Positions 37,076-63,710 are shown, counted from the stretch's first letter. The stretch is DNA of 64,000 bases from Nitrosopumilus sp. (GCA_965249555.1 OZ252243.1:672001-736000), one strand, 5' to 3'. Notes: generated by a model not told the origin, from the letters alone. Numbers and translations are program-made.

Positions 37076-37348
37076 TTAAAATATCTGTCTGTGTTGTCTT
37101 TTTTGCTTTTTCCATTCAATGGAATTTTTTGATGGCGGAGAGCGTGCATTCTCATAATATGACAGTCTTTTTTGCAGTTCCTTGTTTGATTCTATGAGAT
37201 TCTCTATGATTAATTTTAGTTGTTTTATCTCTGCTTGTAGCTGTATGATGATTTTCTCATGACCACAACCTGACATGTTTTATATGATGATTTAGTTGAT
37301 CTTAGATCTTTTTGTGTAATGATATTGATTTGTGCGTGAAGGTTGATA
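37076..37348 (-). mobile_element. Truncated IS66-family element: left end plus first 66 codons of the transposase; its terminal IR is split by the IS110
   Basis: MSGCGHEKIIIQLQ...YYENARSPPSKNS is near-identical to the N-terminus of 62044..63393. The upstream sequence matches 61967-62043. The missing terminal CATAC reappears at 38678-38682. Confidence 0.9.
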
Positions 37349-37355
37349 ACTATAT

Positions 37356-38471
37356 GTGAATACAAAAAGAAGGAATTCAGATAGCATAGGAAATGAATCT
37401 AATTCCAAGATTCGTAATTCATCGTATTCCAAGAAAAGTCCAAAGAAACAGATTAGGGGAAAAAAAGACAAGGGCATGTATGTTGGCATTGACTTGCACA
37501 AGAAATTTCTTCAAGTGGCAACAATGGATAATGACGGAAAGATATTACAAAACATAAAAGTTGAGAACACTCATGAATCAATCAGGAAACATTTTACAGA
37601 CATACCGATTCATGCAAACATTGTCATGGAATCATCATCAGTTTGGTATAACACGTATAGATTTCTTACAGATGAATTGGGATACAAAAACGTAATACTG
37701 TCAAACCCGTATCTTACAAAGGCAATAGCTGCATCAAAAAAGAAGACAGACAAGATTGATGCCAGGATACTGGCAGATCTTTTGCGCGGGGGATACATTG
37801 CAACATGTCATGTTCCAAACAAAAAGATAGTAAAACATCGCCAGCTGGTAAGATACAGAAAAAAACTCATTCAGTGGAGAACATCTCTCAAAAATTCTGT
37901 CCATGGAATTTTGTTGCAGGAGGGAATCAAGATACCAGGAGTCACGTTCACTGTAACATACAACAGAAGACTCACCTCCCTAGGTGACTATCGCATAGAC
38001 GGATTCGTACGACAGATAGACTATCTTAATCTGCAAATTGAAGATATTAATTCAAGAGTGTATGCTGCTGTAAATGCCAGTCCTGATGCCATGATAATAA
38101 AATCAATACCCGGAATTGGTGACTACTCGTCACTAGTTATCGCATCAGAAATTGCAAATATTGACAGATTCAACAACTCTCACAAGTTATGCGCATATGC
38201 AGGAGTCGTGCCATCAGTCAGAAACTCTGCAGACACGATACATCATGGCCGTATAACCAAAAGAGGAAGCATGACACTACGATGGGTCCTTATCCAATGC
38301 GTCCATTCTCATGCAATACATGCCAAGAACAGTGACATTACAAAATTTTACAATCGCATTAAAAAGAAGAGAGGCTCATCAAAGGCCGCAGTTGCCGCAT
38401 CATCAAAGATCCTGCGAGTGATTTACTGGATGCTAAAAGAGAGGAGAGAATTTGTACAGAATTACAGTTAG
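37356..38471 (+). CDS. IS110-family DEDD transposase/recombinase
   Basis: MYVGIDLHK, VMESS, KKTDKIDA (DEDD RuvC-like domain); SIPGIG...EIANIDRF...LCAYAGVVPSVRNSA (Transposase_20 domain with Ser). Confidence 0.95.
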   Translation: MNTKRRNSDSIGNESNSKIRNSSYSKKSPKKQIRGKKDKGMYVGIDLHKKFLQVATMDNDGKILQNIKVENTHESIRKHFTDIPIHANIVMESSSVWYNTYRFLTDELGYKNVILSNPYLTKAIAASKKKTDKIDARILADLLRGGYIATCHVPNKKIVKHRQLVRYRKKLIQWRTSLKNSVHGILLQEGIKIPGVTFTVTYNRRLTSLGDYRIDGFVRQIDYLNLQIEDINSRVYAAVNASPDAMIIKSIPGIGDYSSLVIASEIANIDRFNNSHKLCAYAGVVPSVRNSADTIHHGRITKRGSMTLRWVLIQCVHSHAIHAKNSDITKFYNRIKKKRGSSKAAVAASSKILRVIYWMLKERREFVQNYS

Positions 38472-38650
38472 GACTGCAAGTCGCGTTTGGTATGTTGAGG
38501 GACAGGCCTCGGTTGATAACTGCGGATAGGTCCTAACGAAGGGATGAAGATAGCATTGAGGAAGAAGCCTCGTATGGATACATGTCCGTCATCTTTTGTT
38601 TGAAAGCATTCCCTAGCGAAAGCTATGCCTTGGGATGTAAAAAAGTAGGA
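38467..38650 (+). ncRNA. Predicted bridge RNA/seekRNA of the IS110 element: target-binding loop, donor-binding loop, 3' GNRA hairpin
   Basis: Stem GTTAGGAC (38467-74)/GTCCTAAC (38530-37) encloses GGTATGT-t-GAGG..CCTC-GGTTGATAACT. Stem GGGATGA/TCATCTT encloses ATAGCAT-t-GAGG..CCTC-gtATGGATACAT. TAGC-GAAA-GCTA hairpin follows. Confidence 0.8.
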
Positions 38651-38682
38651 AATGTATAAAAACAATTCACATGGATACATAC

Positions 38683-39062
38683 CTAATTTTTCCTTGTTCT
38701 CCTCAAAGACTATGTTGTCGTATTGGATTTTGTGTTTGTTTAGAAATTTCTCAACACCCTTGCTGTGTATGGGATTGTTGGTTACTATATCCACACCATC
38801 ATACATCTCTGATAGTATCCTTATCTTTTGTTCCAGCATCAGCTCTGTCGGCTCTAGCGTATCCCACTGCTCCCAGCACTGCGAATATCCCGCGTGCATC
38901 ATCATATGTCATGTTGAATTTTCTGTAAAAACCAAACTCGCTTATCTTGTTATATGACAGTTTCAAGTCGGAATATTTTGCAGAATAGTCCATGTTGAAT
39001 ATTGAGATCCATTTTTTTATCGTATTTGATAGTACACCATCAAAGTCTACGGCTATACTCAT
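38683..39062 (-). pseudogene. HAD-family 5'(3')-deoxyribonucleotidase-like gene, frameshifted and 3'-truncated by the IS66/IS110 insertion
   Basis: MSIAVDFDGVL (HAD motif I). It continues in another frame (CWEQWDTLEP...VDIVTN...YDNIVF) up to the IS boundary. Confidence 0.75.
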
Positions 39063-39119
39063 GTTATTTGTTAGAATATTTTAAAAATTATTTGTAAAAA
39101 ATACTAAATATTTTTTAAA

Positions 39120-39920
39120 TTAACCAATACTAGACCTTATTTCTTGTATTTTTTCTTCTTGAAATTCGGGATGAATTATTGGGATTTTATTCATATTGAT
39201 ATACTCAATTGACTGTTTTGCGGTATTAGATAATTCATTCTCAGTTAGTTTGATGGTGCTAAATATCAATGGCTTGTTTCTTTTGTATTTTTCTGATTCT
39301 ATAAGAGCCTTCATTTCATATAAAAATAGTTTAAAACTTTCAAATAAACTACTTTCAGAAAAATTGAATATATCTATGGTATTTACCAATTCATCGTCAT
39401 TCATAAAAGCAAAATCACGTATTTGTGGAATTCCAGAAATTGTGTCTATTTCAAACTTTTCTTCACAAGTTTTTTCAGGAAATTTTAATTTTTGAATATG
39501 TTGTTTTAGTTTGGTTCGAATTTTTGTAACAGAGATGAATTCTTCCAAAATTTGTTTTTTATCAGGAACACTTATCATTTTATCAAATACTTGTTGCAAT
39601 GTAATGTCAATTTCTTTTGTATTTACTTTGATTGGTTCAGAATAAAATATACTGCCATGAAAAGAATCATGAAGTTGCCATAAATAATCGATGGACTCCA
39701 CTTGTAAGACTGGCTTATAATTCTCAAATGATCTTTCCAATCCATGGATTTTTTCAACTCCTAACCTTTTAAAAAATTCATCAAAATTTGCCATGTATTT
39801 ATTATGAATTTTTTTATTTTGTTTATCAAGTAATGATATTCCGATGTTTACAGGTTCAAATCGCACTATATCTGGAACATACTTTATTACTGAAAATTCG
39901 CACTCTGTCATATTTATCAC
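39120..39920 (-). CDS. DUF3037-domain protein
   Basis: FSVIKYVPDIVRFEPVNIGI matches the DUF3037 N-terminal motif; overlaps the kinase stop codon. Confidence 0.8.
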   Translation of the reverse strand: MINMTECEFSVIKYVPDIVRFEPVNIGISLLDKQNKKIHNKYMANFDEFFKRLGVEKIHGLERSFENYKPVLQVESIDYLWQLHDSFHGSIFYSEPIKVNTKEIDITLQQVFDKMISVPDKKQILEEFISVTKIRTKLKQHIQKLKFPEKTCEEKFEIDTISGIPQIRDFAFMNDDELVNTIDIFNFSESSLFESFKLFLYEMKALIESEKYKRNKPLIFSTIKLTENELSNTAKQSIEYINMNKIPIIHPEFQEEKIQEIRSSIG

Positions 39921-40735
39921 GGTAATGATGGTAGTTTGTCTATATTAAGTCGTATGTGTTCATTTGCCATATCTTTTGTAAATTTTGTTAATAAAATCTC
40001 CACATTATTGATGTACTCTTCGTAACCGTTTCCCCAACTTGTAGGAATTTTTTTAATAATGTCTGGAATTATGTTTGCTAAATCAACAGTTCTATTAATT
40101 CCACGATCAAATAATCTAAATTTATCAATATGATCTACAACAAAATGCATTTGATGCAACGTTCGTTTCATTGCTCGCAATCCTCGAATGTCTGTTTTTA
40201 TATTGGGATTTCTCTGAAAAGCTAAATCATGATCAAACAAATAATAATCAACTTTATCAGTTAATATCTCATTCTCTAATAAACAAATATTATTATCATG
40301 TCTATCAAAATTCTCAATGTATTTATCAAAAATAATAAAATCAGGAATCTGTCTAAAATTTCCTATCATGTCTTTATCAATCATCTTTCCTTGTATTTTA
40401 TAGGAATTCACAGTTTCAAAAGGTTGAAGATAAACTTGAGCAAAGTGCTCACCAGAACAAAATTCAGATAATTTTTTATTACTGTCAATTAATTCTTGAG
40501 AAACATTTGCAATGACAGGTTCAAACATTGGTAATTCTAATTCTAAACCTATAAGATTACAAACTAATTCATTTATTCCAATTCTTGCATCATTATATTT
40601 ATTGAATTTTACCTGGTAAGATTCATTATCATCTCCTATCATCACTGTAGGGTGATTAAGACTGCCATACTGTTCGTTGTCTATAACCCACGACATATCC
40701 ACATGTTTAATTTCATAAGAATCGATAAAATTCAT
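39917..40735 (-). CDS. HipA-like (HipA_2) Ser/Thr kinase
   Basis: YQVK, INELVCNLIG, FDKYIENFDRHDNNI, LFDHDLAF. Start set at ATG 40735; the ORF track extends to 40834. Confidence 0.85.
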   Translation of the reverse strand: MNFIDSYEIKHVDMSWVIDNEQYGSLNHPTVMIGDDNESYQVKFNKYNDARIGINELVCNLIGLELELPMFEPVIANVSQELIDSNKKLSEFCSGEHFAQVYLQPFETVNSYKIQGKMIDKDMIGNFRQIPDFIIFDKYIENFDRHDNNICLLENEILTDKVDYYLFDHDLAFQRNPNIKTDIRGLRAMKRTLHQMHFVVDHIDKFRLFDRGINRTVDLANIIPDIIKKIPTSWGNGYEEYINNVEILLTKFTKDMANEHIRLNIDKLPSLP

Positions 40736-40836
40736 GTTATGATACGAATTTAAAAAATACAACAATATTAAATTTTGTTGGTTTTTTATCGAAAAAAGAT
40801 CGATTGGGTTTATTAAAAAATATTGAATTTGCAAAG

Positions 40837-41652
40837 TTACTGAAAGCCTTTTCTTGCCAAATAGTCTGCAACTATCTTTTGTGCATACTCTGCGGGCTCC
40901 ATGTCATTCTCTCTGGATATCTTGGATAACCCTTTGGCATGACTCTTGGATATCTTTAGTGACAGATTCTGTCTTGCCCTGAAAGAGTTTGCCAGCTTTT
41001 GAATATCAGAGTGCTCTGCATTTCCCAATTTTTCCAATGCATCAATGTATCTCTTTTTTTGGAAGGAATCATATTTTTTTATTCTCTCAACTATCTCTAT
41101 TGCCTTGTATGGGGCGGTGACTACCTTGCAGATTCTGATTGCATCCCGTTTGGATAGGACCTGGGGCACCATATCTCGTACCATATCTGGTACCACGGCA
41201 AATCCGAGATACTCCCTAAATGTTGCAGGTTTTATTCCCAATATCTGTGCAGCCTCGCTCTTTCCCATCTTTTCTGCCAAGAACTGGCACGATGCTACCA
41301 TCTCATTTGTAGTCATGTCCTTTCTGTGCATGTTCTCAATTATTGATGCCGCCTTTGCATCCTGTATGTTGCAGGAGCTGTTCTTGGATAGTATCAGTAC
41401 TGGAATGGTCTTTGAGCCAAGTCTTTTTAGCGCTGCAAGTCTTCTCTGGCCTGACATTAGCAGGTAGGAGTTGTTCCCATTCCTCTGAACCATTGGCGGG
41501 TTTTGCAGTCCTTCCTGTGCTATGGAGCGTGCAAGGGAGTCAATGTCGGTATTATCCAATGTCCTTGCCTGTGCCTCCTTCCATATTGTGATTGTATCGA
41601 TTGGAACTTCCTTTAACGAATAGGATATCGGGTTTTCTTTTATTTTCTGCAA
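40837..41652 (-). CDS. ParB/Srx N-terminal domain protein with HTH and short C-terminal DNA-binding-like tail
   Basis: LARSIAQEGLQNPPMV, LMSGQRRLAALKRLG, IIENMHRKDM. Confidence 0.85.
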   Translation of the reverse strand: MQKIKENPISYSLKEVPIDTITIWKEAQARTLDNTDIDSLARSIAQEGLQNPPMVQRNGNNSYLLMSGQRRLAALKRLGSKTIPVLILSKNSSCNIQDAKAASIIENMHRKDMTTNEMVASCQFLAEKMGKSEAAQILGIKPATFREYLGFAVVPDMVRDMVPQVLSKRDAIRICKVVTAPYKAIEIVERIKKYDSFQKKRYIDALEKLGNAEHSDIQKLANSFRARQNLSLKISKSHAKGLSKISRENDMEPAEYAQKIVADYLARKGFQ

Positions 41653-41735
41653 TATTTATCTGTGAATATTTCTTCCTTGATATTGATAAATCTTTGTCTC
41701 TCTTGTCAGATTCAAATTATTTGATGTGTTGATAT

Positions 41736-42152
41736 TCACTTTCTTTTTTGATTGTATTTGCTATCTTTGCCAGTCAGAACATCCACATACTTGTGAACCC
41801 ATCTGTAATCAGGCAGGCAAAACCCGGATGTTTTTCCGGTCTTTGTAGTTTCTGACTTTTTCATCTGTTCATCAATGTCTTCTCTTAATTCTGTGAGATC
41901 TCTGCATTTTTTGATTTTTTCTTCCATAGATACAACCTCATCTGCATATGATATTTTCAAATTAATCAAATCCATATGTGCTGCTTTTAATTCTGTCTCA
42001 ATTTTGGATATGTTGTGTTGAATTTTTTGGTCTGAATCAGATGGTTGTAAGCTCTTTGCATGTGTGACTCTTCTTTTAATTTCACAAAACGCTACAATGA
42101 CCATCGGCATGAGCACTGTCTCAATCAGCAAAAATAAAATCTCTGACATCAT
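41736..42152 (-). CDS. Hypothetical protein: N-terminal TM helix plus coiled coil
   Basis: Hydrophobic first 24 aa, then a heptad-rich region. Confidence 0.55.
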   Translation of the reverse strand: MMSEILFLLIETVLMPMVIVAFCEIKRRVTHAKSLQPSDSDQKIQHNISKIETELKAAHMDLINLKISYADEVVSMEEKIKKCRDLTELREDIDEQMKKSETTKTGKTSGFCLPDYRWVHKYVDVLTGKDSKYNQKRK

Positions 42153-42231
42153 ACATTACCAAATGACTGACAATTCCCATTGATGGGGTTGAAAGATCTC
42201 TCTTGCAGAAAGTCTTGACATTTTTCTGGCT

Positions 42232-42471
42232 TTATTCTGATAACCCATGATGATCAAAGACTCCCAACTTTGTTTCGGTCTCCCTATCTTTCCTAGCTCT
42301 TTCTCTAGAACCCATATAGCGAGCTTTGGTTCTTAATAGATGTCCACAACATGGACATCTTGCTCCCTCACATTTGATATACATCTCACATACTTTGCAA
42401 CGTTTCCGTCCACCATCATATCGTGTACCTTTTTCTGTTACCCTATATCTGATGCAAATTCCCTTACAAGC
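42232..42471 (-). pseudogene. Thaumarchaeal small Cys-rich zinc-finger protein lacking its start codon (abuts IS110 fragment)
   Basis: Manual translation: ACKGICIRYRVTEKGTRYDGGRKRCKVCEMYIKCEGARCPCCGHLLRTKAR... Confidence 0.75.
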
Positions 42472-43161
42472 TAGGTGACTATCGCATAGACGGATTCGTA
42501 CGACAGATAGACTATCTTAATCTGCAAATTGCAGTGATTAATTCAAGAGTGTATGCTGCTGTAAAGACCAGTCCTGATGCCATGATAATAAAATCAATAC
42601 CAGGAATTGGTGACTAATCACTAGTTATCGCATCAGAAATTGCAGATATTACCAGATTCAATGACTCTCACAAGTTATGCGCATATGCACGAGTCGTGCC
42701 ATCAGTCAGAAACTCTGCAGACACGATACACCATGGCAGCATAACCAAAAGAGGAAGCATGACACTACGATGGGTCCTTGTCCAATGCGTCCATTCTCAT
42801 GCAATACATGCCAAGAACAGTGACATTACAAAATTTTACAATCGCATTAAAAAGAAGAGAGGCTCATCAAAAGATGTAGTTGCCGCATCATCAAAGATCC
42901 TGCGAGTGATTTACTGGATGCTAAAAGAGAGAATTTGTACAGAATTACAGTTAGGACTGCAAGTCGCGTTTTGTATGTTGAGGGACAGGCCTCGGTTGAT
43001 AACTGCGGATAGGTCCTAACGAAGGGATGAAGATAGCAATTGAGGAATAAGCCTCGTATGGATACATGTCCGTCATCTTTTGATTGAAAGCATTCTCCAG
43101 CGAAGGCTATGCCTTGGGATGCAAAAAAGTGGGAAATGTATAAAAACAATTCACATGGATA
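42471..43161 (+). mobile_element. 5'-truncated, frameshifted IS110 copy retaining the full non-coding end (second bridge-RNA copy at ~42950-43135)
   Basis: High identity to 37980-38677; ends ATTCACATGGA-TA followed by CATAC. Confidence 0.9.
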
Positions 43162-43167
43162 CATACA

Positions 43168-43401
43168 TTATTTTTCATTATTATAAAGATGGTCAAAAAA
43201 TTCATCACGTAAATTCATATCTTCAAGATCAGGTTTAAGCCTTGACCAAGGAATAACTTCTTGATCAATATCTAAAATTAATTCTTGATTGAAAGTTGTA
43301 TGATTTAAGATCATGATATTAGGAGTGCCTTTCCATTCACTAAAACCGATTCTTTGAAAAACTTTTCTTACAATGGATACACAATATTCATCACGATTCA
43401 T
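43168..43401 (-). CDS. HicA-like small protein (divergent)
   Basis: Size, IVRKVFQRIGF helix and position next to hicB. Lacks the usual GSH motif. Confidence 0.45.
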   Translation of the reverse strand: MNRDEYCVSIVRKVFQRIGFSEWKGTPNIMILNHTTFNQELILDIDQEVIPWSRLKPDLEDMNLRDEFFDHLYNNEK

Positions 43402-43406
43402 TTTAA

Positions 43407-43610
43407 TTAACTCACATCTACAGTATTAATTGATTCTAATTGGCTTTTTAGTTCAGGGTGTTTCTCCATGTATAATTTTATAGCTTCTGGGATTTTCTTT
43501 GTTGCTTCTTCTCTTGTTTTGCCAAACACTCTAACAGGTCTCATTGATGGACAATATGCAATATATCCATCACTGCCTGCAAGCTGTTCAACTTTGTATG
43601 TTATCTGCAT
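43407..43610 (-). CDS. hicB: HicB-family antitoxin (short, no DNA-binding domain)
   Basis: GYIAYCPSM...FGKTREEATKKIPEAIKLYME. Confidence 0.8.
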   Translation of the reverse strand: MQITYKVEQLAGSDGYIAYCPSMRPVRVFGKTREEATKKIPEAIKLYMEKHPELKSQLESINTVDVS

Positions 43611-43746
43611 ATTTCTAACCTCATTTTACCTGATATATAGTTGGATAGTCTTGTTTAAAACTTTTCAGGCTCTGGTCAATCTAGGTGATCTAGTATAGTG
43701 GTCAGAAGTGTCAAATATGGATCTTATTCGAATTGAAAATTTGCGT

Positions 43747-43893
43747 TCAGCCCAATGTAGTCTGATTTTTTTCTGTCATTTCTCGATATTTTTCTAAAAG
43801 AAACTCTAGTCTTTCATCGTCTGATTCAAATGGCTCTTTCCTGTATAATCTATCAACTGCCCTATCTAATGATCTGTGTGCTATCATCAGACC
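43747..43893 (-). pseudogene. C-terminal remnant of an MmeI-like type IIL restriction-modification enzyme
   Basis: Manual translation: LMIAHRSLDRAVDRLYRKEPFESDDERLEFLLEKYREM. Confidence 0.7.
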
Positions 43894-44085
43894 CAAAAAA
43901 CTGAAAAATAGAAAAATAAACTAATCTCAAAAAGAATTACAGCAATATTTGGGCATGAAAAATTTCTGAAGATTGTAATCTTATGGTGTATTGTGTATCA
44001 AACCCACAGGTTTTATGATAAAAAGTGGTAGTACTTTAACTAATCAACTCTAAATAATATTCATATTTATTTTTAATTTAACTTC

Positions 44086-44439
44086 CTATGAAAGCATGTT
44101 TCTGATTGAACTAATTGCCATATCTAGTTTTTTTGAATTCAGTTGACCTATTCTCTTTACTGCTGAATTTTTTTGTAATGTAAAGATATTCGAAAATTTT
44201 ATTCTGCTCTTTTTTTCAAGTGTACCGTCTAGCATATCTATTACATTTATCAAAATAGAATTGTTTTTGTTGCTTAGATTTGATGTGATTCCACAGCAAA
44301 TAAAATCTAATGACTTTTTGTTATGAGAAATATTTGAAATAATCAAAACCGGACGTAATTTTGACATGTCAGTAAAAGGAAATGGTACGAGTATTATTTC
44401 ACCCCGTTCAAACTTTATTCCAGATTTCATCTTCTTCAT
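44086..44439 (-). CDS. mazF: MazF/PemK-family toxin
   Basis: ERGEIILVPFPFTDMSKLRPVLIIS...CGITS. Confidence 0.9.
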   Translation of the reverse strand: MKKMKSGIKFERGEIILVPFPFTDMSKLRPVLIISNISHNKKSLDFICCGITSNLSNKNNSILINVIDMLDGTLEKKSRIKFSNIFTLQKNSAVKRIGQLNSKKLDMAISSIRNMLS

Positions 44440-44668: not shown

Positions 44669-44716
44669 ATGAATAGTAAGAAATTTCTTACTTATAAACA
44701 ACTGGTTTGAGATACC

Positions 44717-45481: not shown

Positions 45482-45731
45482 CCTATTATTTTTTCATGAA
45501 TAAATGATTTACAATCCCTAAATCATTCTATCACAAAATGACAATATTAAAACAAATAATTAATGCCAAAAACAAGAATTCATGTAGTTAGAACGAATTA
45601 CAATGTTATCATACAACATAATTATCAATCATAAAACAACAGATTCCATAGTTAGATCAAATCTAAAAATAGATAATAGTTGGCTCTGGTCAGTTTTTTT
45701 TTAAAGCAAGACACGTTACAATCATATCAAA

Positions 45732-52891: not shown

Positions 52892-52982
52892 GTAGATATA
52901 TCAAACACTTTAGATGTATCCATGTGAATTGTTTTTATACATTTCCCACTTTTTTACACCCCAAGGCATAGCCTTCGCTAGC
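52892..52982 (-). mobile_element. IS110 right-end remnant (52917-52982) joined to a degenerate IS66 right end (52892-52918)
   Basis: Minus strand reads ...AACAATTCACATGGA-TA-CATCTAAAGTGTTTGATATATCTAC; compare 63385-63408. Confidence 0.8.
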
Positions 52983-56027: not shown

Positions 56028-56273
56028 TCAGTTCCATGTATCCGTGTGACTTGCAGTCTTGTAGTGATTTTTGATAATTTGCTCAAAATTATCACCTAGT
56101 CGGTTTAGTGATTTGTCCAGACTTGCTATATTTGCAGAACATTTCAGATTCCTATTGATCAGTTTGTCAAGATATTTTTCTGGAGGCAATGCGCCAAGTT
56201 TTTTCATATTACAGTCTTTACAGGCTAGTGTGAGATTCCAAATGTTGTCTTCAGCAACATAATCAAATGGTAA
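56028..56273 (-). pseudogene. C-terminal fragment of an HNH endonuclease
   Basis: Manual translation: LPFDYVAEDNIWNLTLACKDCNMKKLGALP... Confidence 0.7.
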
Positions 56274-56274
56274 T

Positions 56275-56381
56275 GACAGTTGCCGGATTAGGATGAACTC
56301 TTAGATCAATTCTTGATTTTTTACTATGTGTTTGATCAGCATAGTATGTTGCTACTTGTATTGATTTGCCTATTCCACCTT
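56275..56381. repeat. ~105-bp direct repeat, second copy at 61675-61780
   Basis: GACAGTTGCnGGATTAGGATGAACTCTTAGATC...CCTATTCCACCTT at both sites. Confidence 0.9.
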
Positions 56382-56578
56382 TTTCTTTTGATATGATTCC
56401 AATCGCCTGTCTTTGTTTTCAAATCTGGTTTCATGAGGATATTTTTTACAGCATCACAAACCCCTCTAAACTCATTGGAATATACTGAACCTCGAGGACT
56501 GTCGTTTTGTAGAATTACACGAACTGACAATTTTCATGATTGTAATAATAGAATTCACATTCTAATTGTTAATTTTTA

Positions 56579-57241
56579 TCATATATCTGACCGTAACCTA
56601 TTTCCATTCTTGTCAAAATCCATTTTACAATACAACACACCATTCCCATCATATCTCTTCTGCCATTTCCTATTCCCATTCTCATGGTACTCTATTTCAT
56701 AATCTAATTTCCCATTATCATGATATCCTTTTTCCCATTTCCCATTCCCATGGTACTTTATTTCATAATTTAATTTCCCATTCTCATAATATCCTTTTTC
56801 CCATTTCCCATTCCCATTCTCTTGAAGCTCTGCTTCTAATTGCAATTGTCCATTCTCATAATATCCTTTACCCCATTTCCCATTCCCATTCTCATGGTAC
56901 TCTATTTCATAATCTAATTTCCCATTATCATAATATCCTTTTTTCCATTTCTTATTCCCATTCTCTTGAAGCTCTGCTTCTAATTGCAATTGTCCATTTT
57001 CATAATAGCCTTTACCCCATTTCCTATTCCCATTCTCATAGTACTCTATTTCATAATATAATTTCCCATTCTCATAATATCCTTTTTCCCATTTCCTATT
57101 CCCATTCTCATGGTACTCTATTTCATAATCTAATTTCCCATTATCATAATATCTTTTTTCCCATTTCCTATTCCCATTCTCTTGAAGCTCTGCTTCTAAT
57201 TTCAATTGTCCATTCTTATAATAGAGTTTTTTTCGTTTCAT
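56579..57241 (-). CDS. MORN2-repeat (YwqK-like) protein; 5' region degraded and cut by an IS66 end
   Basis: 24-aa (72-bp) repeats YYENG(K/Q)L..E.EY.ENGN.KWEKG. A further repeat upstream carries an in-frame TAG. Confidence 0.8.
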   Translation of the reverse strand: MKRKKLYYKNGQLKLEAELQENGNRKWEKRYYDNGKLDYEIEYHENGNRKWEKGYYENGKLYYEIEYYENGNRKWGKGYYENGQLQLEAELQENGNKKWKKGYYDNGKLDYEIEYHENGNGKWGKGYYENGQLQLEAELQENGNGKWEKGYYENGKLNYEIKYHGNGKWEKGYHDNGKLDYEIEYHENGNRKWQKRYDGNGVLYCKMDFDKNGNRLRSDI

Positions 57242-57344
57242 ATTTCCATCCTCTTGATACTGTATTTCACCTTTTAATTTCCCATTTTCATGCTATTCTT
57301 TGTATGGTAGTTTTCCCATTATGTTTGATCCTATTAGTTTTTGA

Positions 57345-57405
57345 GTATGTATCAACCTTCACGCACAAATCAATATCATTACACAAAAAGATCCAAGATC
57401 AACTA
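57345..57405 (+). mobile_element. IS66 left end (IR plus leader) fused to an IS110 left end
   Basis: GTATGTATCAACCTTCACGCAC...AAGATCAACTA matches 61967 onward. Confidence 0.85.
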
Positions 57406-58413
57406 ACTATATGTGAATACAAAAAGAAGGAATTCAGATAGCATAAAAAATGAACCCAGATCCAGGAGTCGTAATCCATCGTATTCCAAGAAAAGTCCAA
57501 AGAAACAGATTAGGGCAAAAAAAGACAAGGGCATGTATGTTGACATTGACTTGCACAAGGAATTTCTTCTAGCAACAATGGATAATGACAGAAAGATATT
57601 ACAAAACATAAAAGTTGAGAACACTCATAAATCAATCAAGAAACATTTTACAGACATACCAATATTGTCATGGAATCATCATCAGTCTGGTATGGCACGT
57701 ATAGATTTCTTACAGATGAATTAGGATACAAAAATGTTACACTCTCAAACCCGTATCTTACAAAGGCAATAGCTGCATCAAAAAAAACAGGCAAGATTGA
57801 TGCTATGATACTAGCCAGATCTTTTGCGCGGGGGATACATTGCAACATGCCATATTCCAAACAAAAAGATAGTAAAACATCGCCAGCTGGTAAGATACAG
57901 AAAAAAACTCGTTCAGTTTAGAATCTCTCTCAAAAATTCTGTTCATGGAATTTTGTTACAAGAGGGAATCAAGATACCCGGAGTCACGTTCACTGTAACA
58001 TACAACAGAAAACTCATGTTACTAGATGACTATCGCATAGATGGATTTGTACGACAGATAGACTATCCTAATCTGCAAATTGCAGAGATTAATTCAAGAG
58101 TGTATGCTGCTGTAAAGACCAGTCCTGATGCCATGATAATAAAATCAATGCCAGGAATTGGTGACTACTCGTCACTAGTTATCGCATCAGAAATTGCAAA
58201 TATTAACAGATTCAACAACTCTCACAAGTTATGCGCATATGCCGGAGTCGTGCTATCAGTTAGAAATTCTGCAGACACAATACACCATGGCAGTATAACC
58301 AAAAGGGGAAGCATGACACTACGATGGGTTCTTATCCAATGTGTTCATTCTCATGCAATACATGCCAAGAACAGTGACATTACAAAATTTTACAATCGCA
58401 TTAAAAAGAAGAG
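57404..58413 (+). pseudogene. Degenerate IS110 copy: multiple frameshifts, 3' end and non-coding end lost
   Basis: Three ORF fragments (57413, 57670, 57824) are collinear with 37356..38471; left end TA-ACTATATGTGAAT. Confidence 0.9.
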
Positions 58414-59738
58414 TACTAGAATTGACTGTACTAAAATGCATAATATTTATCTGTATAGGGATATTTGTAGTTGCCGTCTTCGTGAATTCTTTGAATGATG
58501 AAATTAACAATAATGTAACATTAGTTGTAGAAATTGGTGTCGGAATTATCATTGCAATTATTATTTATAATATTTCTCAAAAAAATGAATTAAAGATTAA
58601 AGAAATGATCGAGGATACATTCAGTATTATTAAAAAAAGAGATGATTTTAGAAAAAAACAAGAAACATATATGAAAAAAATACTTTTAGGCGGATTTATC
58701 AAGATAAAAAATTGTATAGATCAAATATTACATAATGCTAAATCATATGAAAAAGAAAAAGATGCATCTCAGAAGAAACGGTATACAAATGCCATAAAAG
58801 ATAATTGTAAACAAATTAAAGATATTGCTGAAAAAACCCTAGATAATCCAACTCTCATATCAAAAGATTGGTTGGAAGTAAGTAAGATAGATACACTCAA
58901 AACTCTATCATCCTTGTGTAAAAATAGTCCTTCTTTTGAGCATAATAATGTGAATGTTAATTTTTGTGAAAATATAGAAAAGATGATTGATCCTTGGATT
59001 GAAGATTATCGTCAAATATTAGAAAATAAGAGTAGGTCTGAAAAAGAGGTAATATCAATTTCTGAATCAGTGAGTGTACACCTGAAAGAGGATGAAAGCA
59101 GATTAAAAAGCACACCAATAGAATCGGAACCAAAATCTGTTGTGGATAAATTTCCCATTTCTGTTTCGTCGGATCGTACAGTGTATCCACTAGATAGTGT
59201 AATTCATGTACGGGTAAATCTTGGCAACATAATTAAGAAAGAAATCATAACTTATGAAATATTTAATTCAGACAGAGAGTTACTTTTATCACAAACACTC
59301 AATCCGTCTACTTGCAAAGAGTCAGAGTTGTCAAACGCCAATATTTTTCAAGCTGATTTTAAAATGAAAGGAGACAAATGGATAGTAGGAAATGAATATA
59401 TCGTCAGAGCCACTCACGCTGCTTCATATGCCGAAGATTCATTCACGATTGATCAAAGAATGCCTGTTATTCAATCAGATAAATCCGTATACACGATTGG
59501 TTCTGACATGATACTGACTGTGATTGATCCTGATGCAGATAAAGACAATCAAATAGCTGAATATGTTGGCAATAGAAATGATTCCAAATTAATCATTGAA
59601 TCCAAATATGATAAAATTGATGGCTATAAATTAAAAGAGACAGGTGATTCCACAGCAATATTTCAAGGAGTTGTTAGAATTTTGAGAATAAAAAAAGATG
59701 GAACAGTGATTACAAGAAATGTAGATGGAAAGATAATT

Positions 59739-60881
59739 GAGACATGGGCATAATCTATTCTAATTTTTAACCGATTTCTCAAATTATTCAAATAGAAAAA
59801 GCCAAGGATCTCAATCATGTTTTGTTCATTGGAATGATTACAAAACAAATAAAAATCCCTGACAAGATTCTATGTGAGTCATTTCTTATTAGTATTTTGT
59901 ATCTGGTTGGAACACTATATCTGTATGAGAATGCAGTGAGACGAGGACGGCCATATGTCTATTCAACTGTTCTGATGGTTCAGTTATTCATCATAAAGTC
60001 ATGGATGAGAATTCCAAGTAACAACACACTGCATTATTTTCTCTCAATCAAATGTACCAATGACAAATTACTCAAGGTTTGCAGACTAAACCAAATCCCT
60101 GACAGAAGGACAATTGACAGAAGATTTCAATGCTTGCCAATCAATGAAATTATTAACACTGTAGGAAATTTGTTTGTCTCAGAAGGATTGGTGAATAGTG
60201 AATCAGCATCAGTTGATAGTTCAATGCTAAAAGCTTCAGGTCCAGTATGGCACAAATCAGACATCAAAAAGAATCACCTACCAATTGCAGGAATTGACAC
60301 AAATGCCAGGTGGGGATTCTCCAAATCAAAGGGTTGGGTGTATGGATACAAACTACACATGAGTTGCAGTACGGGAAGACTAGTTGTTCCATTATCTGCA
60401 TGTGTAACTACTGCAAATGTCCATGATAGCAAGCCATATGAGAAATTGATTGGGTCACTTTCTGGATTGATGAATAACATACTGTGTGATCCGGCATATG
60501 ATGATTCCAAACTATACGAGTCAACTAAGAATAATGCCATGAGATTAATCTGTCCGGTCAAAAAATACCCGTCTACGCCGCCAGCCAGAATAAAGTTGAT
60601 AGGGTTTTACAATTCAGCAGTTGGTCGGAAATTATATTCTCAGAGAAAAATATCAATTGAACCACTCTTTGAAATAATCAAGGATACGTTTAACATTAGA
60701 ACAGTTCCGGTGAAAGGATTTGAGAACGTACAATCATTCGTGCTGATTTGTGTGCTGGTGTATCAGTTGGCAGTGTATTATAATTGTGTAATTGGAAGTG
60801 GGAATCCAAGGATTGTGAAAAGAATGCTTTGTTGTTAGAGAAGAGTCTTGGTTTTTTTGTAAATCATTATGCCCAAGTCTC
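59739..60881 (+). mobile_element. Complete DDE insertion sequence (DDE_Tnp_1-type, IS982/IS5-like), 1143 bp
   Basis: IRs GAGACATGGGCATAAT / ATTATGCCCAAGTCTC; 8-bp TSD AGATAATT at 59731-38 and 60882-89. Confidence 0.9.
59822..60838 (+). CDS. DDE transposase
   Basis: SVDSS, GWVYGYKLH, TANVHD, CDPAYD, YSQRKISIEPLF. Confidence 0.9.
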   Translation: MFIGMITKQIKIPDKILCESFLISILYLVGTLYLYENAVRRGRPYVYSTVLMVQLFIIKSWMRIPSNNTLHYFLSIKCTNDKLLKVCRLNQIPDRRTIDRRFQCLPINEIINTVGNLFVSEGLVNSESASVDSSMLKASGPVWHKSDIKKNHLPIAGIDTNARWGFSKSKGWVYGYKLHMSCSTGRLVVPLSACVTTANVHDSKPYEKLIGSLSGLMNNILCDPAYDDSKLYESTKNNAMRLICPVKKYPSTPPARIKLIGFYNSAVGRKLYSQRKISIEPLFEIIKDTFNIRTVPVKGFENVQSFVLICVLVYQLAVYYNCVIGSGNPRIVKRMLCC

Positions 60882-61780
60882 AGATAATTGATAAAATTCA
60901 GGGAAGTGAAATTAATGATGGATTTATTGGTGGGATGCCTGGAGATGAGTTGACAGCCATATACAAGAACAATACAGGTACAGCACGTCTTACATTCTTT
61001 ATTGCAAATTTTGGCGCAACTATAGAACTTGACCAAAAAATATACAGGCCTACAGATAAAGTATACATTACAATTGTCGCACCTGATTTTAATTTTAATT
61101 CTAATATGATTGACAAAATAGGAATAAATCCTGAAAGCATCATAAATATTTGTACTCGTAAAGACAAGATGGAGAGATATCAACTGGTTGAAACAGGTGT
61201 AGATACTGGAATTTTTACAGGTGAAATTCAATTGGGTAGGAACGTAGGCGAACAGATATCAAAAACAAACGGCATTGGACCTACTGATGGAGAATTAATG
61301 TGTGAAGATGATGATTTCATAGAGGTTTCATTTAATTTGTTTGGAGATGAGGAGGTTTTAGGAAGAGCTAAGATAAAATCTGTTGTGAATAAACCATGAC
61401 TTTGTAAAACCGCATCAAGGATTGAATAGAAAACACCTGCAGAAGCAACAAACATTGATCTTGATTTGGGTACTGACAAATATTTGGATTTGGTCAAGCC
61501 GGAACTAAAGTCGATTTTGTAAACAATTTGGGAAAGAGAATCAAGAAAATTACAATAGTCAATGAGGAGGATGCCATCAAAGTTACACCTACAGGTTGGA
61601 TTGATAAGAAAATATGGCAAGAGATAAATGATATTTTGGGACTTTGCAAGTTTTGTTGGTTGTCAAATGGCAAGGACAGTTGCAGGATTAGGATGAACTC
61701 TTAGATCAATTCTTGATTTTTTACTATGTGTTTGATCAGCGTAGTATATGCTACTTGTATTGATTTGCCTATTCCACCTT

Positions 61781-61936
61781 GAAGATAGCATTGAGGTTAA
61801 AGCCTCGTATGGATACATGTCCGTCATCTTTTGATTGAAAGCATTCCCTAGCGAAAGCTATGCCTTGAGATGCAAAAAAGTGGAAAATGTATAAAAACAA
61901 TTCACATGGATACATCTAAAGTGCTTGGATACATAC
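61781..61936 (+). mobile_element. IS110 right-end remnant (donor loop, 3' hairpin, end at 61912) joined to an IS66 right end (61911-61936)
   Basis: Matches 38546-38677; then TA-CATCTAAAGTGCTTGGATACATAC. Confidence 0.85.
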
Positions 61937-61966
61937 TAATGATCATGTTTATAAATTCATGAAAAA

Positions 61967-63408
61967 GTATGTATCAACCTTTACGCATGAATCAACACTA
62001 TTACACAAAAAGATCTAAGATCAACTAAATCATCATACAAAACATGTCAGGTTGTGGTCATGAGAAAATCATCATACAGCTACAAGAAGAGATAAAACAA
62101 CTACAAGCAGAGATAAAACAACTAAAACTAATCACAGGGAATCTCATAGAATCAAACAAGGAACTGCAAAAAAAGCTGTCATATTATGAGAATGCGCACT
62201 CTCCGCCATCAAAGAATTCCCTTGAATGGAGAAAGCAAAAAAGACAACACAGACAGCCAGGCAAATCAAGACGTGGTGGAATAGCAGGACACGTTGGCAA
62301 GACACAGAAATTCAGACCAACTAGCACCAAACACCACAGATCAGATGCATGTCCCAAATGCGGTAGTGAAAATATTCATCAAACCAAAACCTGCAAAAGG
62401 ATAATGGTTGAGATTCCTCCACCAACACCCTACGGTATAACTGAGCATGTTTTGAATCAATACATCTGCATGGACTGTTCTGATAATTTTCAAACCACGG
62501 GAAACCTTCCACTACATGGATGTTTTGATGGTTCAGTGATACGTGAGGTCGTCTCACTGTTCTCAAAGAGATTGCCATATGATACCATCAGAACCACACT
62601 CTATGAAAGATATGGATTAGAAATCAGCAATACAACCGTACAATCCATTCTTCGCAACGGTAGTGTGATGTTAGAGTCATTTTACAATACAATCCACAGC
62701 GAAATCGTGACTGAAAAGATTCTCGGAATCGATGAGACAGGATTTTCAATTGATGGAAATACTGGATGGATGTGGGTTGCAAGAAGCAAGACTAGTGCAC
62801 AGTATGCCTTGGAGTACAGCAGAGGTGCCAATGTTCTAAAAAAGTACTGGAAGAAATTCAAAGGAACCCTAGTGTCTGACGGATATGCTCCGTACAGGAC
62901 AGTATTTTGTGATAACACAAAGCAGAGATGCACTGCACACCTGCAGCGCGATGCCAAATATCTGGCAATAAAATCAAAAGACAAAAAGGCCAGGATTCTA
63001 TACGAGAAACTCTCAGATATGCTAGGTCATGCCAGGGTTTGGAGTGTAGGTAATCGTCATACAAAACGGCGGGAAACGTACAGGAATGATTTACTAAAAC
63101 AGCTGGACCGTATCATTGCACGATATTTGAAAGGTGATATGGAGATGGTTCAGTTTGGCAAGAAGCTAAAGACTGCAAGGAACAGCATGTTTACGTTTGT
63201 CATGGATGGCGATGTCCCGTCAACTAACAATGATGCAGAGAATTCCATTCGAAAGTGCGTGATGCAGAGGAATGTTCGCGGGCAGATGAAGAGTGATCAG
63301 GGCATGAGGATGATCTCAGTCTTTCTCACATGCTTTGAGACATGGAGAATAAGGGAATTGAACATGTTTTCTGAAATGGCAAAATACATCTAAGTGCTTA
63401 ATACATAC
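61967..63408 (+). mobile_element. Complete single-ORF IS66-family element (ISBst12-like group), 1442 bp
   Basis: IRs GTATGTATCAACC / GCTTAATACATAC; 8-bp TSD ATGAAAAA at 61959-66 and 63409-16. Confidence 0.92.
62044..63393 (+). CDS. IS66-family transposase
   Basis: Coiled coil, SPPS, CPKC...CMDC zinc finger, IDETG, WMWV, VSDGYAPY, QRCTAHLQR, TNNDAENSIR. Confidence 0.95.
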   Translation: MSGCGHEKIIIQLQEEIKQLQAEIKQLKLITGNLIESNKELQKKLSYYENAHSPPSKNSLEWRKQKRQHRQPGKSRRGGIAGHVGKTQKFRPTSTKHHRSDACPKCGSENIHQTKTCKRIMVEIPPPTPYGITEHVLNQYICMDCSDNFQTTGNLPLHGCFDGSVIREVVSLFSKRLPYDTIRTTLYERYGLEISNTTVQSILRNGSVMLESFYNTIHSEIVTEKILGIDETGFSIDGNTGWMWVARSKTSAQYALEYSRGANVLKKYWKKFKGTLVSDGYAPYRTVFCDNTKQRCTAHLQRDAKYLAIKSKDKKARILYEKLSDMLGHARVWSVGNRHTKRRETYRNDLLKQLDRIIARYLKGDMEMVQFGKKLKTARNSMFTFVMDGDVPSTNNDAENSIRKCVMQRNVRGQMKSDQGMRMISVFLTCFETWRIRELNMFSEMAKYI

Positions 63409-63426
63409 ATGAAAAATGTGTTAAAT

Positions 63427-63615
63427 ATGGAAGATATTATAAAAACAGGTGAAAAAGCCCCTAAAAGTGGAAATTATGAATATGCAGGACATCCTGAGAA
63501 AAAGACAAGCTGTAGTCCAACTAATGAAGAGAAAATCATTCCACTTGAAAAAGGAGAAATAGCACCACCAATAAAATCATGTGAAGAACCAGCTTTATGG
63601 AAATTTAGAAATTAA
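63427..63615 (+). CDS. YjzC-like small protein
   Basis: KTGEKAPKSGNY...IIPLEKGEIAPP...W. Start set at ATG 63427. Confidence 0.65.
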   Translation: MEDIIKTGEKAPKSGNYEYAGHPEKKTSCSPTNEEKIIPLEKGEIAPPIKSCEEPALWKFRN

Positions 63616-63692
63616 AAATAATTAATTTCCACAATATACTTTTTTTCTATAATTCATATCTAGGTTAAGTAAATTTGTTATGTGGTTTCCAC

Positions 63693-63710
63693 ATTCACAT
63701 GGATACATAC
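63693..63710 (+). mobile_element. Minimal scar: IS110 right end plus IS66 terminus
   Basis: ATTCACATGGA-TA-CATAC, identical to 38665-38682. Confidence 0.6.

What the first reader, a model, noticed from the sequence alone, without database searches (positions are those of the whole stretch)
37347..63710. All seven IS110 junctions in the window abut IS66 end sequence, at three different registers
Seen: the terminal-IR site occurs at 37347/38676, 43160 and 63704 (TA-CATAC). An inner right-end site TA-CATCTAA(A)GTG occurs at 61911 and 52917, corresponding to the last codons of IS66 tnp at 63385. An inner left-end site GATCAAC-TA occurs at 57404. Inference: repeated targeting of IS66 ends disables IS66 copies, or IS66::IS110 composites moved together. 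The inner sites match the guides poorly, implying relaxed specificity or other guide alleles.
Basis: seen in the sequence. Interest (0 to 1): 0.7.

Follow-up and report, generated by a model that had tools for sequence, protein, structure and literature searches.

The report
RNA-guided IS110 element targets IS66 ends
One mobile element in this archaeal genome carries a small guide RNA whose variable loops match the ends of a second, unrelated mobile element, so it inserts into that element at several fixed positions, each matched by a different version of the guide.

Summary
Five of the seven junctions abut 20 nt or more of IS66-family sequence. The other two (43161, 63705) abut only CATAC, which cannot be assigned to IS66.

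The inserting element is a 1,331-bp IS1111-type IS110-family element with a DEDD transposase, 8-bp subterminal repeats and a 3' non-coding RNA region. In 20 copies of that region, two short blocks beside a conserved hairpin are hypervariable (diversity 0.37 and 0.32, against 0.05 elsewhere).
- Block 1 is the reverse complement of the right flank.
- Block 2 equals the left flank plus TA plus ACT.

Each copy's block 1 matches its own right flank far better than shuffled pairings (82 vs 49.8±5.6, p=5e-5).

The window's intact copy carries GGTTGA-TA / ACATACC, which matches the IS66 tip. Alleles elsewhere match the inner-right site (CATCTAAA), the inner-left site (TCAAC-TA-AATCAT) and a fourth site (TCAA-TA). 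So the three registers reflect different guide alleles. CATAC is target sequence, not the IS110 end.

Genome-wide, 12 of 21 left junctions lie in IS66-derived DNA. All 25 full IS66 copies are uninterrupted, so ongoing disabling is not shown. Seven identical "29 nt of IS66 + TAG" junctions remain unexplained.

The parts
37085..37348 (-). Old fragment of the IS66-family element (its positions 5-289), left end facing the IS110
   Evidence: blastn at 86.7% identity; inverted match to 61972-62256
37347..38677 (+). Full IS1111-type IS110-family element, 1,331 bp counting the TA at both ends
   Evidence: Reference copy for 44 genome-wide matches; ends read
37356..38471 (+). DEDD transposase gene, 371 aa, open frame
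   Evidence: PF01548 at 3.9e-25 and PF02371 at 1.7e-21; NF033542 at 225 bits against a cut-off of 140; one of 3 open frames among 9 full-length copies
37354..37361 (+). Left subterminal inverted repeat ATGTGAAT, 7 nt in from the left end
   Evidence: Read; pairs with 38665-38672
38665..38672 (+). Right subterminal inverted repeat ATTCACAT, followed by GGA and the TA
38467..38537 (+). Target-binding domain of the predicted seek/bridge RNA: 7-bp outer stem, 5-bp inner stem, internal loop, capping hairpin at 38496-38511
   Evidence: RNAalifold on 20 copies, and on 22 sequences including two relatives
38487..38495 (+). Right-target guide (block 1, TTGGTATGT); its reverse complement ACATACCAA matches the A of TA plus CATACC in the right flank
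   Evidence: Hypervariable, diversity 0.37; own guide against own flank p=5e-5
38511..38521 (+). Left-target guide GGTTGA, then TA, then ACT (block 2); identical to the left flank plus the first bases of the element
   Evidence: Hypervariable, diversity 0.32; 6 of 6 match to the flank at 37341-37346
38539..38597 (+). Putative donor-binding domain: 8-bp stem and two hairpins. ATGGATA (38574-38580) equals the right end. GATAGCA (38549-38555) is partly complementary to the left end.
   Evidence: RNAalifold. The guide assignment is my inference.
38678..38682 (+). CATAC: the last 5 nt of the interrupted IS66 left tip
   Evidence: IS66 tip sequence
42471..43161 (+). IS110 fragment (positions 634-1331) with guide allele ACATACAAA; followed by CATAC at 43162-43166
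   Evidence: The right flank matches its own guide over 6 nt after the core A. IS66 origin cannot be shown.
52917..52981 (-). IS110 right-end stub (positions 1267-1331)
52895..52916 (-). Decayed IS66-type right end CATCTAAAGTGTTTGATATATC (inner-right site)
   Evidence: 8-nt match to guide allele ACATCTAAA
57345..57403 (+). First 59 nt of an IS66 left end, up to the inner-left site GATCAAC-TA
57404..58413 (+). Decayed IS110 fragment (positions 1-1025)
   Evidence: blastn at 91.7% identity
61780..61912 (+). IS110 right-end stub (positions 1199-1331)
61913..61936 (+). Last 24 nt of an older IS66-type right end, carrying the extra A also seen in the 54-bp mini element
61967..63408 (+). Intact IS66-family element; single transposase gene 62044-63393 (449 aa); 8-bp target duplication ATGAAAAA at 61959-61966 and 63409-63416
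   Evidence: PF03050 at 4.8e-42; NF033517 at 224.6 bits against a cut-off of 180; duplication found
63693..63705 (+). 13-nt remnant of the IS110 right end, followed by CATAC at 63706-63710
   Evidence: No IS66 interior lies beside it.

Best explanation
**The element.** The window holds one intact copy, four fragments and one 13-nt remnant of an IS1111-type member of the IS110 family. Its 3' non-coding region encodes a two-domain seek/bridge RNA. In the first domain an internal loop carries two guides: one complementary to the top strand right of the insertion point, and one identical to the top strand left of it plus TA plus the first 3 nt of the element.

**The target.** In the window's intact copy the guides read GGTTGA-TA and ACATACC. 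That is the terminal inverted repeat of a co-resident single-gene IS66-family element, read inward from its tip (...GGTTGA-TA-CATAC). The element therefore recombines at the TA, 5 bp inside an IS66 tip.

**Guide alleles.** Across the genome the two guide blocks have diverged into at least 10 right-guide and 8 left-guide alleles. Different alleles match different positions in the IS66 ends and in its miniature derivatives:
- the tip;
- an inner-right site in the last codons of the IS66 transposase gene;
- an inner-left site 59 nt in;
- a site 29 nt in.

The three registers in the window are therefore products of different guide alleles.

**Other features.** Insertions outside IS66 that still carry CATAC fit recognition by the right guide alone (half-match). 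The short right-end stubs fit partial-element recombination at look-alike sites inside the guide-coding DNA.

**Shown and inferred.** Shown here: the sequence anatomy, the guide-flank covariation and the enrichment in IS66 DNA. Inferred: that the RNA is made, that it binds the transposase, and the order of strand exchange.
For: 1. **Family and build.**
   - Pfam and NCBIfam assign the transposase to the IS110 family.
   - The 8-bp subterminal repeats lie 7 nt from the left end.
   - The 206-nt non-coding region lies downstream of the gene.

2. **Variable guide blocks.** In the alignment of 20 non-coding regions, variation is concentrated in two blocks beside a conserved hairpin. Diversity is 0.37 and 0.32 there, against 0.053 elsewhere.

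3. **Own guide matches own flank.** The summed contiguous match between each copy's right guide and its own right flank is 82 (n=20). Shuffled pairings give 49.8±5.6, p=5e-5. Examples:
   - The copy at genome 282102-283432 matches 10 nt after the core A on the right and TTTT-TA on the left, at a non-IS66 site.
   - The copy at 533297 matches 9 nt on the right.

4. **Window intact copy.** Its left guide matches 6 of 6 and its right guide 6 nt of the IS66 tip.

5. **Inner sites have their own alleles.**
   - ACATCTAAA against CATCTAAAGTG: 8 nt.
   - TCAAC-TAACT plus AAAATCATTAC against GATCAAC-TA-AATCATC.
   - GGTCAA-TA against AAATCAA-TA.

6. **Guide order.** The top-strand match lies 5' of the bottom-strand match, as reported for IS1111-type seekRNAs (PMC11187229, section 9, read).

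7. **Same-genus relatives carry other guides that match their own flanks**.
   - G036: guide TCTGG-TAACT. Three of 4 left flanks end GGTTCTGG and one ends GGTCTGG; all four end in the guide's TCTGG.
   - G015: guides TCTGA and GCAATTT, with flanks ACTGA and GCAATTT.

8. **RNA scaffold.** RNAalifold gives the same two-domain structure with the relatives included. Of 46 pairs, 2 show compensatory changes, and 8 of 1,012 cells are non-canonical.

9. **Enrichment.** 12 of 21 left junctions are in IS66-derived DNA, which is 1.9% of the genome. 16 of 29 right flanks start with CATAC (P=1e-40 from base composition).
Against: - **No expression or activity data.** No RNA run holds the stretch. The contigs laid on it show no circle junction and no empty site.
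- **Left-guide test is weak.** Own left guide against own left flank gives 19 vs 13.7±3.5, p=0.09, n=10.
- **Mismatched copies.**
  - Three full copies with CATAC on the right have left flanks that match the guide at only 1-3 contiguous nt.
  - Several copies sit in flanks that fit another copy's allele better than their own. This requires trans action, recombination between copies, or half-match events.
- **Decay.** Only 3 of 9 full-length copies keep an open transposase frame.
- **Unused targets.** None of the 25 young IS66 copies is occupied, although 67 perfect TGATACATAC sites are intact. Targeting of IS66 may be largely historical.
- **Little stem covariation.** The copies are 90-97% alike, so the stems have had little chance to covary.
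- **Non-independent copies.** Mosaic patterns among copies mean they are not independent.
Confidence: 0.8

Rival explanations
1. IS66::IS110 composites were moved as units by the IS66 transposase. On this view the repeated junctions reflect copying of a few ancestral insertions, not repeated targeting.
For: - Seven left junctions are identical: the first 29 nt of the IS66 left end, then TAG instead of TAA. Each is preceded by different DNA starting exactly at the IS66 tip G.
- No right flank continues with the IS66 sequence expected after position 31 (0 of 29). So these are not simple insertions into full IS66 copies.
- The IS110 right end plus CATAC mimics the first 9 nt of the IS66 tip.
- A 3.5-kb element bounded by IS66-type ends, with an 8-bp duplication TGAAAATT, exists at genome 103095-106620. 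This suggests the IS66 transposase can move units that share only its ends.
Against: - Neither of the 2 testable composites (genome 2210563-2211904 and 1854081-1854355) has an 8-bp duplication, against 21 of 25 for IS66 itself.
- No outer 8-mer pairs with any CATAC-side 8-mer.
- The IS110 bodies of the TAG copies do not cluster on a tree: 6 changes for 6 rows, the same as shuffled labels.
- It does not explain the covariation between guides and flanks.
Confidence: 0.25
2. CATAC belongs to the IS110 right end, so the boundary was set 5 nt too short and the apparent link to IS66 tips is an artefact.
For: - 16 of 29 right ends are followed by CATAC and then unrelated DNA.
- Three full copies with CATAC have non-IS66 left flanks.
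- The non-coding region contains ATGGATACAT, which equals the right end plus CAT.
Against: - 13 of 29 right ends are followed by something else: CATCT twice, CATAT, CATGC, CAATC, ATCTT twice, ATCAT, ATTAC, and others.
- The base at flank position 6 and beyond follows the copy's own guide allele.
- At 61912 the flank runs on as 24 nt of IS66.
- Uninterrupted IS66 tips contain TACATAC and are bounded by 8-bp duplications.
- The relative in G015 has a different flank that matches its own guide.
Confidence: 0.03
3. There is no RNA guidance. The element simply prefers TA in AT-rich DNA, and the links to IS66 come from homologous recombination and decay among many IS copies.
For: - The genome is 34% G+C.
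- It carries many nested and truncated IS pieces, including an IS630-like element at TA sites.
- The IS110 copies are mosaic.
Against: - CATAC at 16 of 29 right flanks has P=1e-40 from base composition.
- The left junctions are strongly enriched in the 1.9% of the genome that is IS66-derived.
- Matches of 9-10 nt between a copy's own guide and its own flank occur at non-IS66 sites.
- Relatives carry different guides that match different flanks.
Confidence: 0.03

Closest known systems
[quoted passage not shown]
   Same: An IS1111-type element with subterminal repeats and no target duplication. Its preferred target is the terminal inverted repeat of another transposable element, at a fixed position and in a fixed orientation.
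   Different: - The host element here is an IS66-family insertion sequence in an archaeon, not a Tn3-family transposon in bacteria.
- Several registers are used (the tip, and about 29, 59 and 24 nt from a tip).
- Each register is matched by a different guide allele within one genome.
ISEc11, ISPa11 and ISKpn4 seekRNAs (Siddiquee et al. 2024, PMC11187229; sections 6, 9 and 13 read)
   Same: - The non-coding region lies downstream of the transposase gene.
- The RNA has a short match to the top strand 5' of a match to the bottom strand.
- The two matches overlap at the insertion point.
- There is a 7-nt extension outside the left subterminal repeat.
   Different: - No experiment has been done here.
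- The transposase is 371 aa, against 330-350 aa quoted for the IS1111 family.
- The conserved C-terminal motif reads ...P----SA rather than SG or TG.
IS621 bridge RNA (Durrant et al. 2024, PMC11208160, passages read; Hiraizumi et al. 2026, PMC13626964, abstract read)
   Same: - Two-loop logic, with a target loop and a donor loop.
- The left guide runs 3 nt into the element (TAACT), like a handshake guide.
- The core dinucleotide is shared by donor and target.
   Different: - The RNA lies at the right end, and the guide order is reversed.
- The donor region is a multi-loop, not a simple internal loop.
- The core is TA, not CT.
Half-match recombination and partial circles of IS110 elements (preprints 10.64898/2026.08.31.748434, abstract and section 8 read; 10.64898/2026.08.14.744561, abstract and section 9 read)
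   Same: - Insertions that match only one guide arm: the right arm matches up to 9 nt while the left arm is mismatched.
- Right-end stubs have a canonical right boundary and internal start points clustered at positions 1176-1267.
- Two stubs sit inside complete IS66-type targets.
   Different: Those studies concern IS110-group elements in bacteria and donor-arm half matches. Here the evidence is static genome sequence only, and the half match is on the target's right arm.

Membership tests
IS110 family (DEDD transposase) | N-terminal DEDD/RuvC-like domain and C-terminal Transposase_20 domain | tested here: met
   PF01548 at 3.9e-25 and PF02371 at 1.7e-21; NF033542 at 225.1 bits against a cut-off of 140
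IS1111 group | Subterminal inverted repeats of 7-17 bp, with a 7-bp extension at the left end | tested here: met
   ATGTGAAT at 37354-37361 and ATTCACAT at 38665-38672; 7 nt (TAACTAT) lie outside the left repeat
IS1111 group | Long non-coding region downstream of the transposase gene | tested here: met
   9 nt lie before the gene and 206 nt after it
IS1111 group | No target duplication apart from the shared core | tested here: met
   Only the TA is shared between the two junctions in the copies with both ends
IS1111 group | C-terminal GL-P----S(T)G motif and transposase length of 330-350 aa | tested here: inconclusive
   The protein reads GVVPSVRNSA, i.e. SA rather than SG, TG or TA, and is 371 aa long. 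The criterion comes from PMC11187229, section 6.
IS1111 group | Transposase falls in the IS1111 clade on a tree | not tested
seekRNA / bridge RNA | Short RNA segments that match both strands of the target, overlap at the insertion point and covary with the target | tested here: met
   Own guide against own flank: 82 vs 49.8±5.6, p=5e-5. Relatives carry other guides that match their own flanks.
seekRNA / bridge RNA | The RNA is transcribed and binds the transposase | not testable with these tools
   No RNA run is listed as holding the stretch. Rfam 15 has no matching family at E<=1.
IS66 family | DDE_Tnp_IS66 transposase | tested here: met
   PF03050 at 4.8e-42; NF033517 at 224.6 bits against a cut-off of 180
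IS66 family | Terminal inverted repeats and an 8-bp target duplication | tested here: met
   The tips read GTATGTAT... and ...ATACATAC. An 8-bp duplication is present in 21 of 25 full copies.
IS66 family, single-gene (ISBst12-like) subgroup | Only the large transposase gene; no tnpA or tnpB accessory genes | tested here: met
   The 1,442-bp element holds one 449-aa ORF. The subgroup name is recalled, not taken from a call.

The most novel reading that the evidence does not exclude
Inside one archaeal genome, the guide loops of an IS1111-like element have been reprogrammed again and again. At least four of the resulting ten or more alleles tile different registers of both ends of a single IS66-family element. 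That would be a conflict between two insertion sequences, with three further consequences:
- IS110-type recombination between these sites deletes IS66 interiors, leaving the 36-bp and 54-bp remnants (29 nt of left end, TA, then a right tip).
- The commonest IS66 right tip, with the core changed from TA to TT in 15 of 25 copies, is an escape variant.
- The guide-coding DNA itself acts as a look-alike site and produces the right-end stubs.
Probability: 0.25. Interest if true: 0.8.

Novelty: new variant of a known kind. Interest (0 to 1): 0.6.

Why it matters
**What is already known.** RNA-guided IS110/IS1111 recombinases are studied as programmable genome-editing tools. How their guides change in nature, and how tolerant they are of mismatches, is still being worked out. 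IS1111 elements that live in the inverted repeats of other transposons are also known.

**What this genome adds.**
- It is a natural series of guide alleles on one nearly constant RNA scaffold and one transposase.
- Each allele can be compared with real insertion sites, both full matches and one-arm matches.
- The target here is an IS66-family element in an archaeon.
- One element's ends are hit at several registers, each by a matching allele.

**What it makes testable.**
- Guide evolution.
- Half-match insertion on the target side.
- Whether one insertion sequence can restrain or reshape another.

The two full-text searches I ran for this listed no paper describing IS110 elements that target IS66, or guide diversification within one genome.

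Tried and rejected
- **Rfam.** A search of 37000-39000 at E<=1 found no family.
- **Sequencing runs.**
  - No RNA holder is listed.
  - Contigs from four runs laid on 36800-39200 showed no empty-site joint and no right-end-to-left-end circle joint. The single joint seen skips 37775-38584 in one contig.
  - Loose ends in two other runs repeat junctions already present in this genome.
- **Target duplications around composites.** No 8-mer upstream of any left end cut at 29 nt recurs after a tip within 6 kb, except at genome 106620.
- **Excision scar.** GTATGTACATAC occurs 0 times.
- **Tree of the TAG-variant copies.** They do not cluster on the first 250 nt, so a clonal IS110 lineage is not supported.
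- **Automated flank classification (blastn-short).** I did not use it as it stood.
  - It counted two 10-nt chance hits.
  - It missed the diverged copy at genome 1345526.
  - It missed both CATCTAAAGTG flanks.
  - It scored two right flanks only because another IS66-type tip starts 8 nt further on.
- **Fixed guide register.** It fails for the CTAATCATA and CTAATTACA alleles, which fit flanks only with a 2-nt shift. The relatives G036 and G015 also suggest a shift of about 1 nt.
- **The '820-1331' fragments.** I first took them for a second IS110 subfamily. They are IS110 3' halves joined to an unrelated ~80-nt repeat, and I did not resolve them.
- **Ancestral state of the ambiguous junctions.** I did not try to recover it for 43161 and 63705 from relatives. 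The same-genus elements are only 65-81% identical, so I judged that intergenic DNA would not align.

Full report
**1. Setting**

The window is bases 672001-736000 of a single-contig genome of 2.23 Mb and 34% G+C. Its 16S gene scores 1,456 bits on the archaeal model and 1,095 bits on the bacterial model, so the host is an archaeon.

**2. The observation**

Reading the flanks gives five junctions that abut clear IS66-family sequence:
- 37347: 264 bp of an old IS66 copy in reverse orientation.
- 38677: the missing 5 nt of that same tip.
- 61912: 24 nt of a right end.
- 52917: a decayed 22-nt right end.
- 57404: the first 59 nt of a left end.

Two junctions (43161 and 63705) are followed only by CATAC and then unrelated DNA, with no IS66 interior beside them. 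The claim of "all seven" is therefore five certain and two undecidable.

**3. The two elements**

*The inserting element* (37347-38677) is 1,331 bp.
- It encodes a 371-aa DEDD transposase of the IS110 family.
- It has 8-bp subterminal inverted repeats, with 7 nt outside the left one.
- A 206-nt non-coding region lies downstream of the gene.
- It makes no target duplication apart from a shared TA.
- This is the IS1111-type layout described in PMC11187229 (sections 6 and 7).

*The host element* (61967-63408) is a 1,442-bp single-gene IS66-family element.
- The genome has 25 full copies, most 96-98% identical to the window copy (range 91-98%).
- 21 of the 25 have an 8-bp target duplication, which fixes its ends as GTATG...CATAC.
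- Miniature derivatives also exist:
  - one of about 140 bp, in 4 copies;
  - one of 54 bp (29 nt of left end, TA, 23 nt of right end);
  - one of 36 bp (29 nt of left end, TA, CATAC).

**4. The guides**

Aligning the non-coding regions of 20 copies shows an almost constant sequence, except for two short blocks on either side of a conserved hairpin. Diversity is 0.37 and 0.32 in the blocks against 0.053 elsewhere, with 10 and 8 distinct alleles.
- RNAalifold places the two blocks on opposite sides of an internal loop, closed by a 5-bp and a 7-bp stem and capped by the hairpin. A second stem-and-two-hairpin domain follows.
- The scaffold is kept in two same-genus relatives that are 79-81% identical.
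- Block 1 is the reverse complement of the A of TA plus the right flank.
- Block 2 equals the left flank plus TA plus ACT, the first bases of the element.
- The top-strand match lies 5' of the bottom-strand match, the order reported for IS1111 seekRNAs (PMC11187229, section 9).

**5. Tests of the guide reading**

- Own right guide against own right flank gives a summed contiguous match of 82 for 20 copies. Shuffled pairings give 49.8±5.6, p=5e-5.
- The left-guide test is weaker: 19 vs 13.7±3.5, p=0.09, n=10.
- The cleanest single case is an intact copy at genome 282102-283432, at a site with no IS66. Its right flank CAATCATAAC matches its guide over 10 nt after the core A, and its left flank ...TTTT-TA matches as well.
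- In relative G036 the guide reads TCTGG-TAACT. Three of the 4 left flanks end GGTTCTGG and one ends GGTCTGG, so all four end in TCTGG.
- In relative G015 the guides TCTGA and GCAATTT meet the flanks ACTGA and GCAATTT.
- No IS66 sequence lies near those copies.

These results rule out CATAC being part of the IS110 end. In addition, 13 of 29 right ends are followed by other sequence.

**6. The three registers**

- *Tip.* The window's intact copy carries GGTTGA-TA and ACATACC. This is the IS66 left tip read inward (6 of 6 on the left, 6 nt on the right).
- *Inner right.* The site TA-CATCTAAAG at 61912 and 52917 matches allele ACATCTAAA over 8 nt. Four copies elsewhere carry that allele or its close variant ACATCTAAC.
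- *Inner left.* The site GATCAAC-TA-AATCATC at 57404 matches the allele pair TCAAC-TAACT / AAAATCATTAC, carried by the copy ending at genome 1584632.
- *A fourth site.* AAATCAA-TA, 29 nt into the left end, matches the left allele GGTCAA-TA, which three copies carry.

**7. Genome-wide picture**

*Left junctions* (21): 12 lie in IS66-derived DNA.
- 3 at a tip.
- 7 at the 29-nt site.
- 1 at the inner-left site.
- 1 at the inner-right site of a miniature element.

IS66-derived DNA is 1.9% of the genome. The automated count of 13 gives P=7e-18, but it has two false hits and one miss.

*Right junctions* (29):
- 16 are followed by CATAC (P=1e-40 from base composition).
- 2 by CATCTAAAGTG.
- 1 each by CATAT and CATGC.
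- 9 by other sequence.

*The 16 CATAC cases:*
- 5 have an IS66-derived partner on the left.
- 3 full copies do not.
- 1 abuts an IS66 tip at an internal IS110 position.
- 7 are truncated and cannot be judged.

One of the three full copies without an IS66 partner matches its right guide over 9 nt while its left arm is mismatched. This looks like the half-match insertion described for IS621 (preprint 10.64898/2026.08.31.748434, section 8), here on the target's right arm.

**8. Right-end stubs**

Short right-end pieces start at positions 1176-1267, within the DNA that encodes the guide and donor loops. Two of them sit inside complete IS66-type targets:
- GCTTGA-TA-[1233-1331]-TA-CATAC, in a miniature element.
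- AAATCAA-TA-[1216-1331]-TA-CATAC.

This resembles the partial circles with one canonical boundary, and their reintegration, reported in preprint 10.64898/2026.08.14.744561 (section 9). The link is my inference.

**9. What is not supported or not solved**

- *Disabling of IS66 is not shown.* All 25 full copies are uninterrupted and 67 perfect TGATACATAC sites are unoccupied. The occupied IS66 pieces are old (81-95% identity) or miniature.
- *The IS110 family is decaying.* Only 3 of 9 full-length copies keep an open frame.
- *Seven left junctions share 29 nt of IS66 left end followed by TAG instead of TAA.*
  - Their outer flanks all differ.
  - No right flank continues into IS66.
  - Neither of the 2 testable composites has a duplication.
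  - The TAG copies do not cluster on a tree.
  - Co-movement by the IS66 transposase, insertion into pre-existing minis, and deletion between two IS110-type sites all remain possible. I put co-movement at about 0.25.

**10. Comparison with known systems, and verdict**

[quoted passage not shown] RNA guidance of IS1111 and IS110 elements is established. Three things differ here: the IS66 target, the archaeal host, and several guide alleles in one genome aimed at several registers of one element. My two literature searches listed no description of this. Supplementary tables were closed. I rate it a new variant of a known kind, with interest 0.6.

Noticed in passing
window 2714-36997 (-): A single open reading frame of 11,427 aa, made of ~230-nt units repeated many times (matches at about 1.5-kb spacing). 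A run of 11 C followed by GGGCGGGG lies immediately upstream of its start, at 36998-37016.
   Followed up: no
window 56588-57373: Eight or more tandem 72-nt units (24-aa repeats). On the minus strand they read like glycine/asparagine-rich MORN-type repeats. The gene's start abuts the IS66 left end at 57345.
   Followed up: no
genome-wide; IS66 right tips, e.g. genome 138553-139972: 15 of 25 full IS66 copies have the right tip GATTCATAC instead of GATACATAC or AATACATAC (5 each). The TA used by the IS110 is changed to TT in these copies. All 25 left tips keep the TA. This could be an escape variant or simply the master copy of a recent burst.
   Followed up: partly
genome 103095-106620 (outside the window): A 3.5-kb unit bounded by an IS66-type left end (29 nt, then TA) and a tip-like right end (CTTGATACACAC), with an 8-bp duplication TGAAAATT. 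It contains both ends of a third repeated IS, which encodes a DDE-type protein and is present in about 13 copies, plus other ORFs.
   Followed up: partly
genome 1247806-1248899, 2070012 onward, 536552 upstream (outside the window): A third IS of about 1.1 kb. By my recollection it is IS630-like and inserts at TA. It is inserted in an IS110 at position 133-135, and it also lies next to IS66 left-end remnants. Three IS families are therefore nested in one another.
   Followed up: no
genome 57115, 1558715, 1584120, 1839073, 2075544, 2219668 (outside the window): Six IS110 3' halves all begin at position 820. Each is joined to the same ~80-nt sequence, which itself occurs about 30 times in the genome. 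These pieces keep the guide RNA region but have no left end. Their origin is unexplained.
   Followed up: partly
window 56263-56381 and 61663-61780: A 118-bp direct repeat (95% identical). On the minus strand it encodes a Walker-A-like GGIGKS stretch, so it may be the starts of two paralogous ATPase genes. The second copy is cut by the IS110 stub at 61780.
   Followed up: no
genome 527978-529595 and 2120588-2123205 (outside the window): The reverse relation also occurs. Two full IS66 copies abut IS110 at internal positions 1176 and 1205, inside the guide RNA region, and have no target duplication. IS66 has therefore also inserted into, or deleted up to, IS110 copies.
   Followed up: partly
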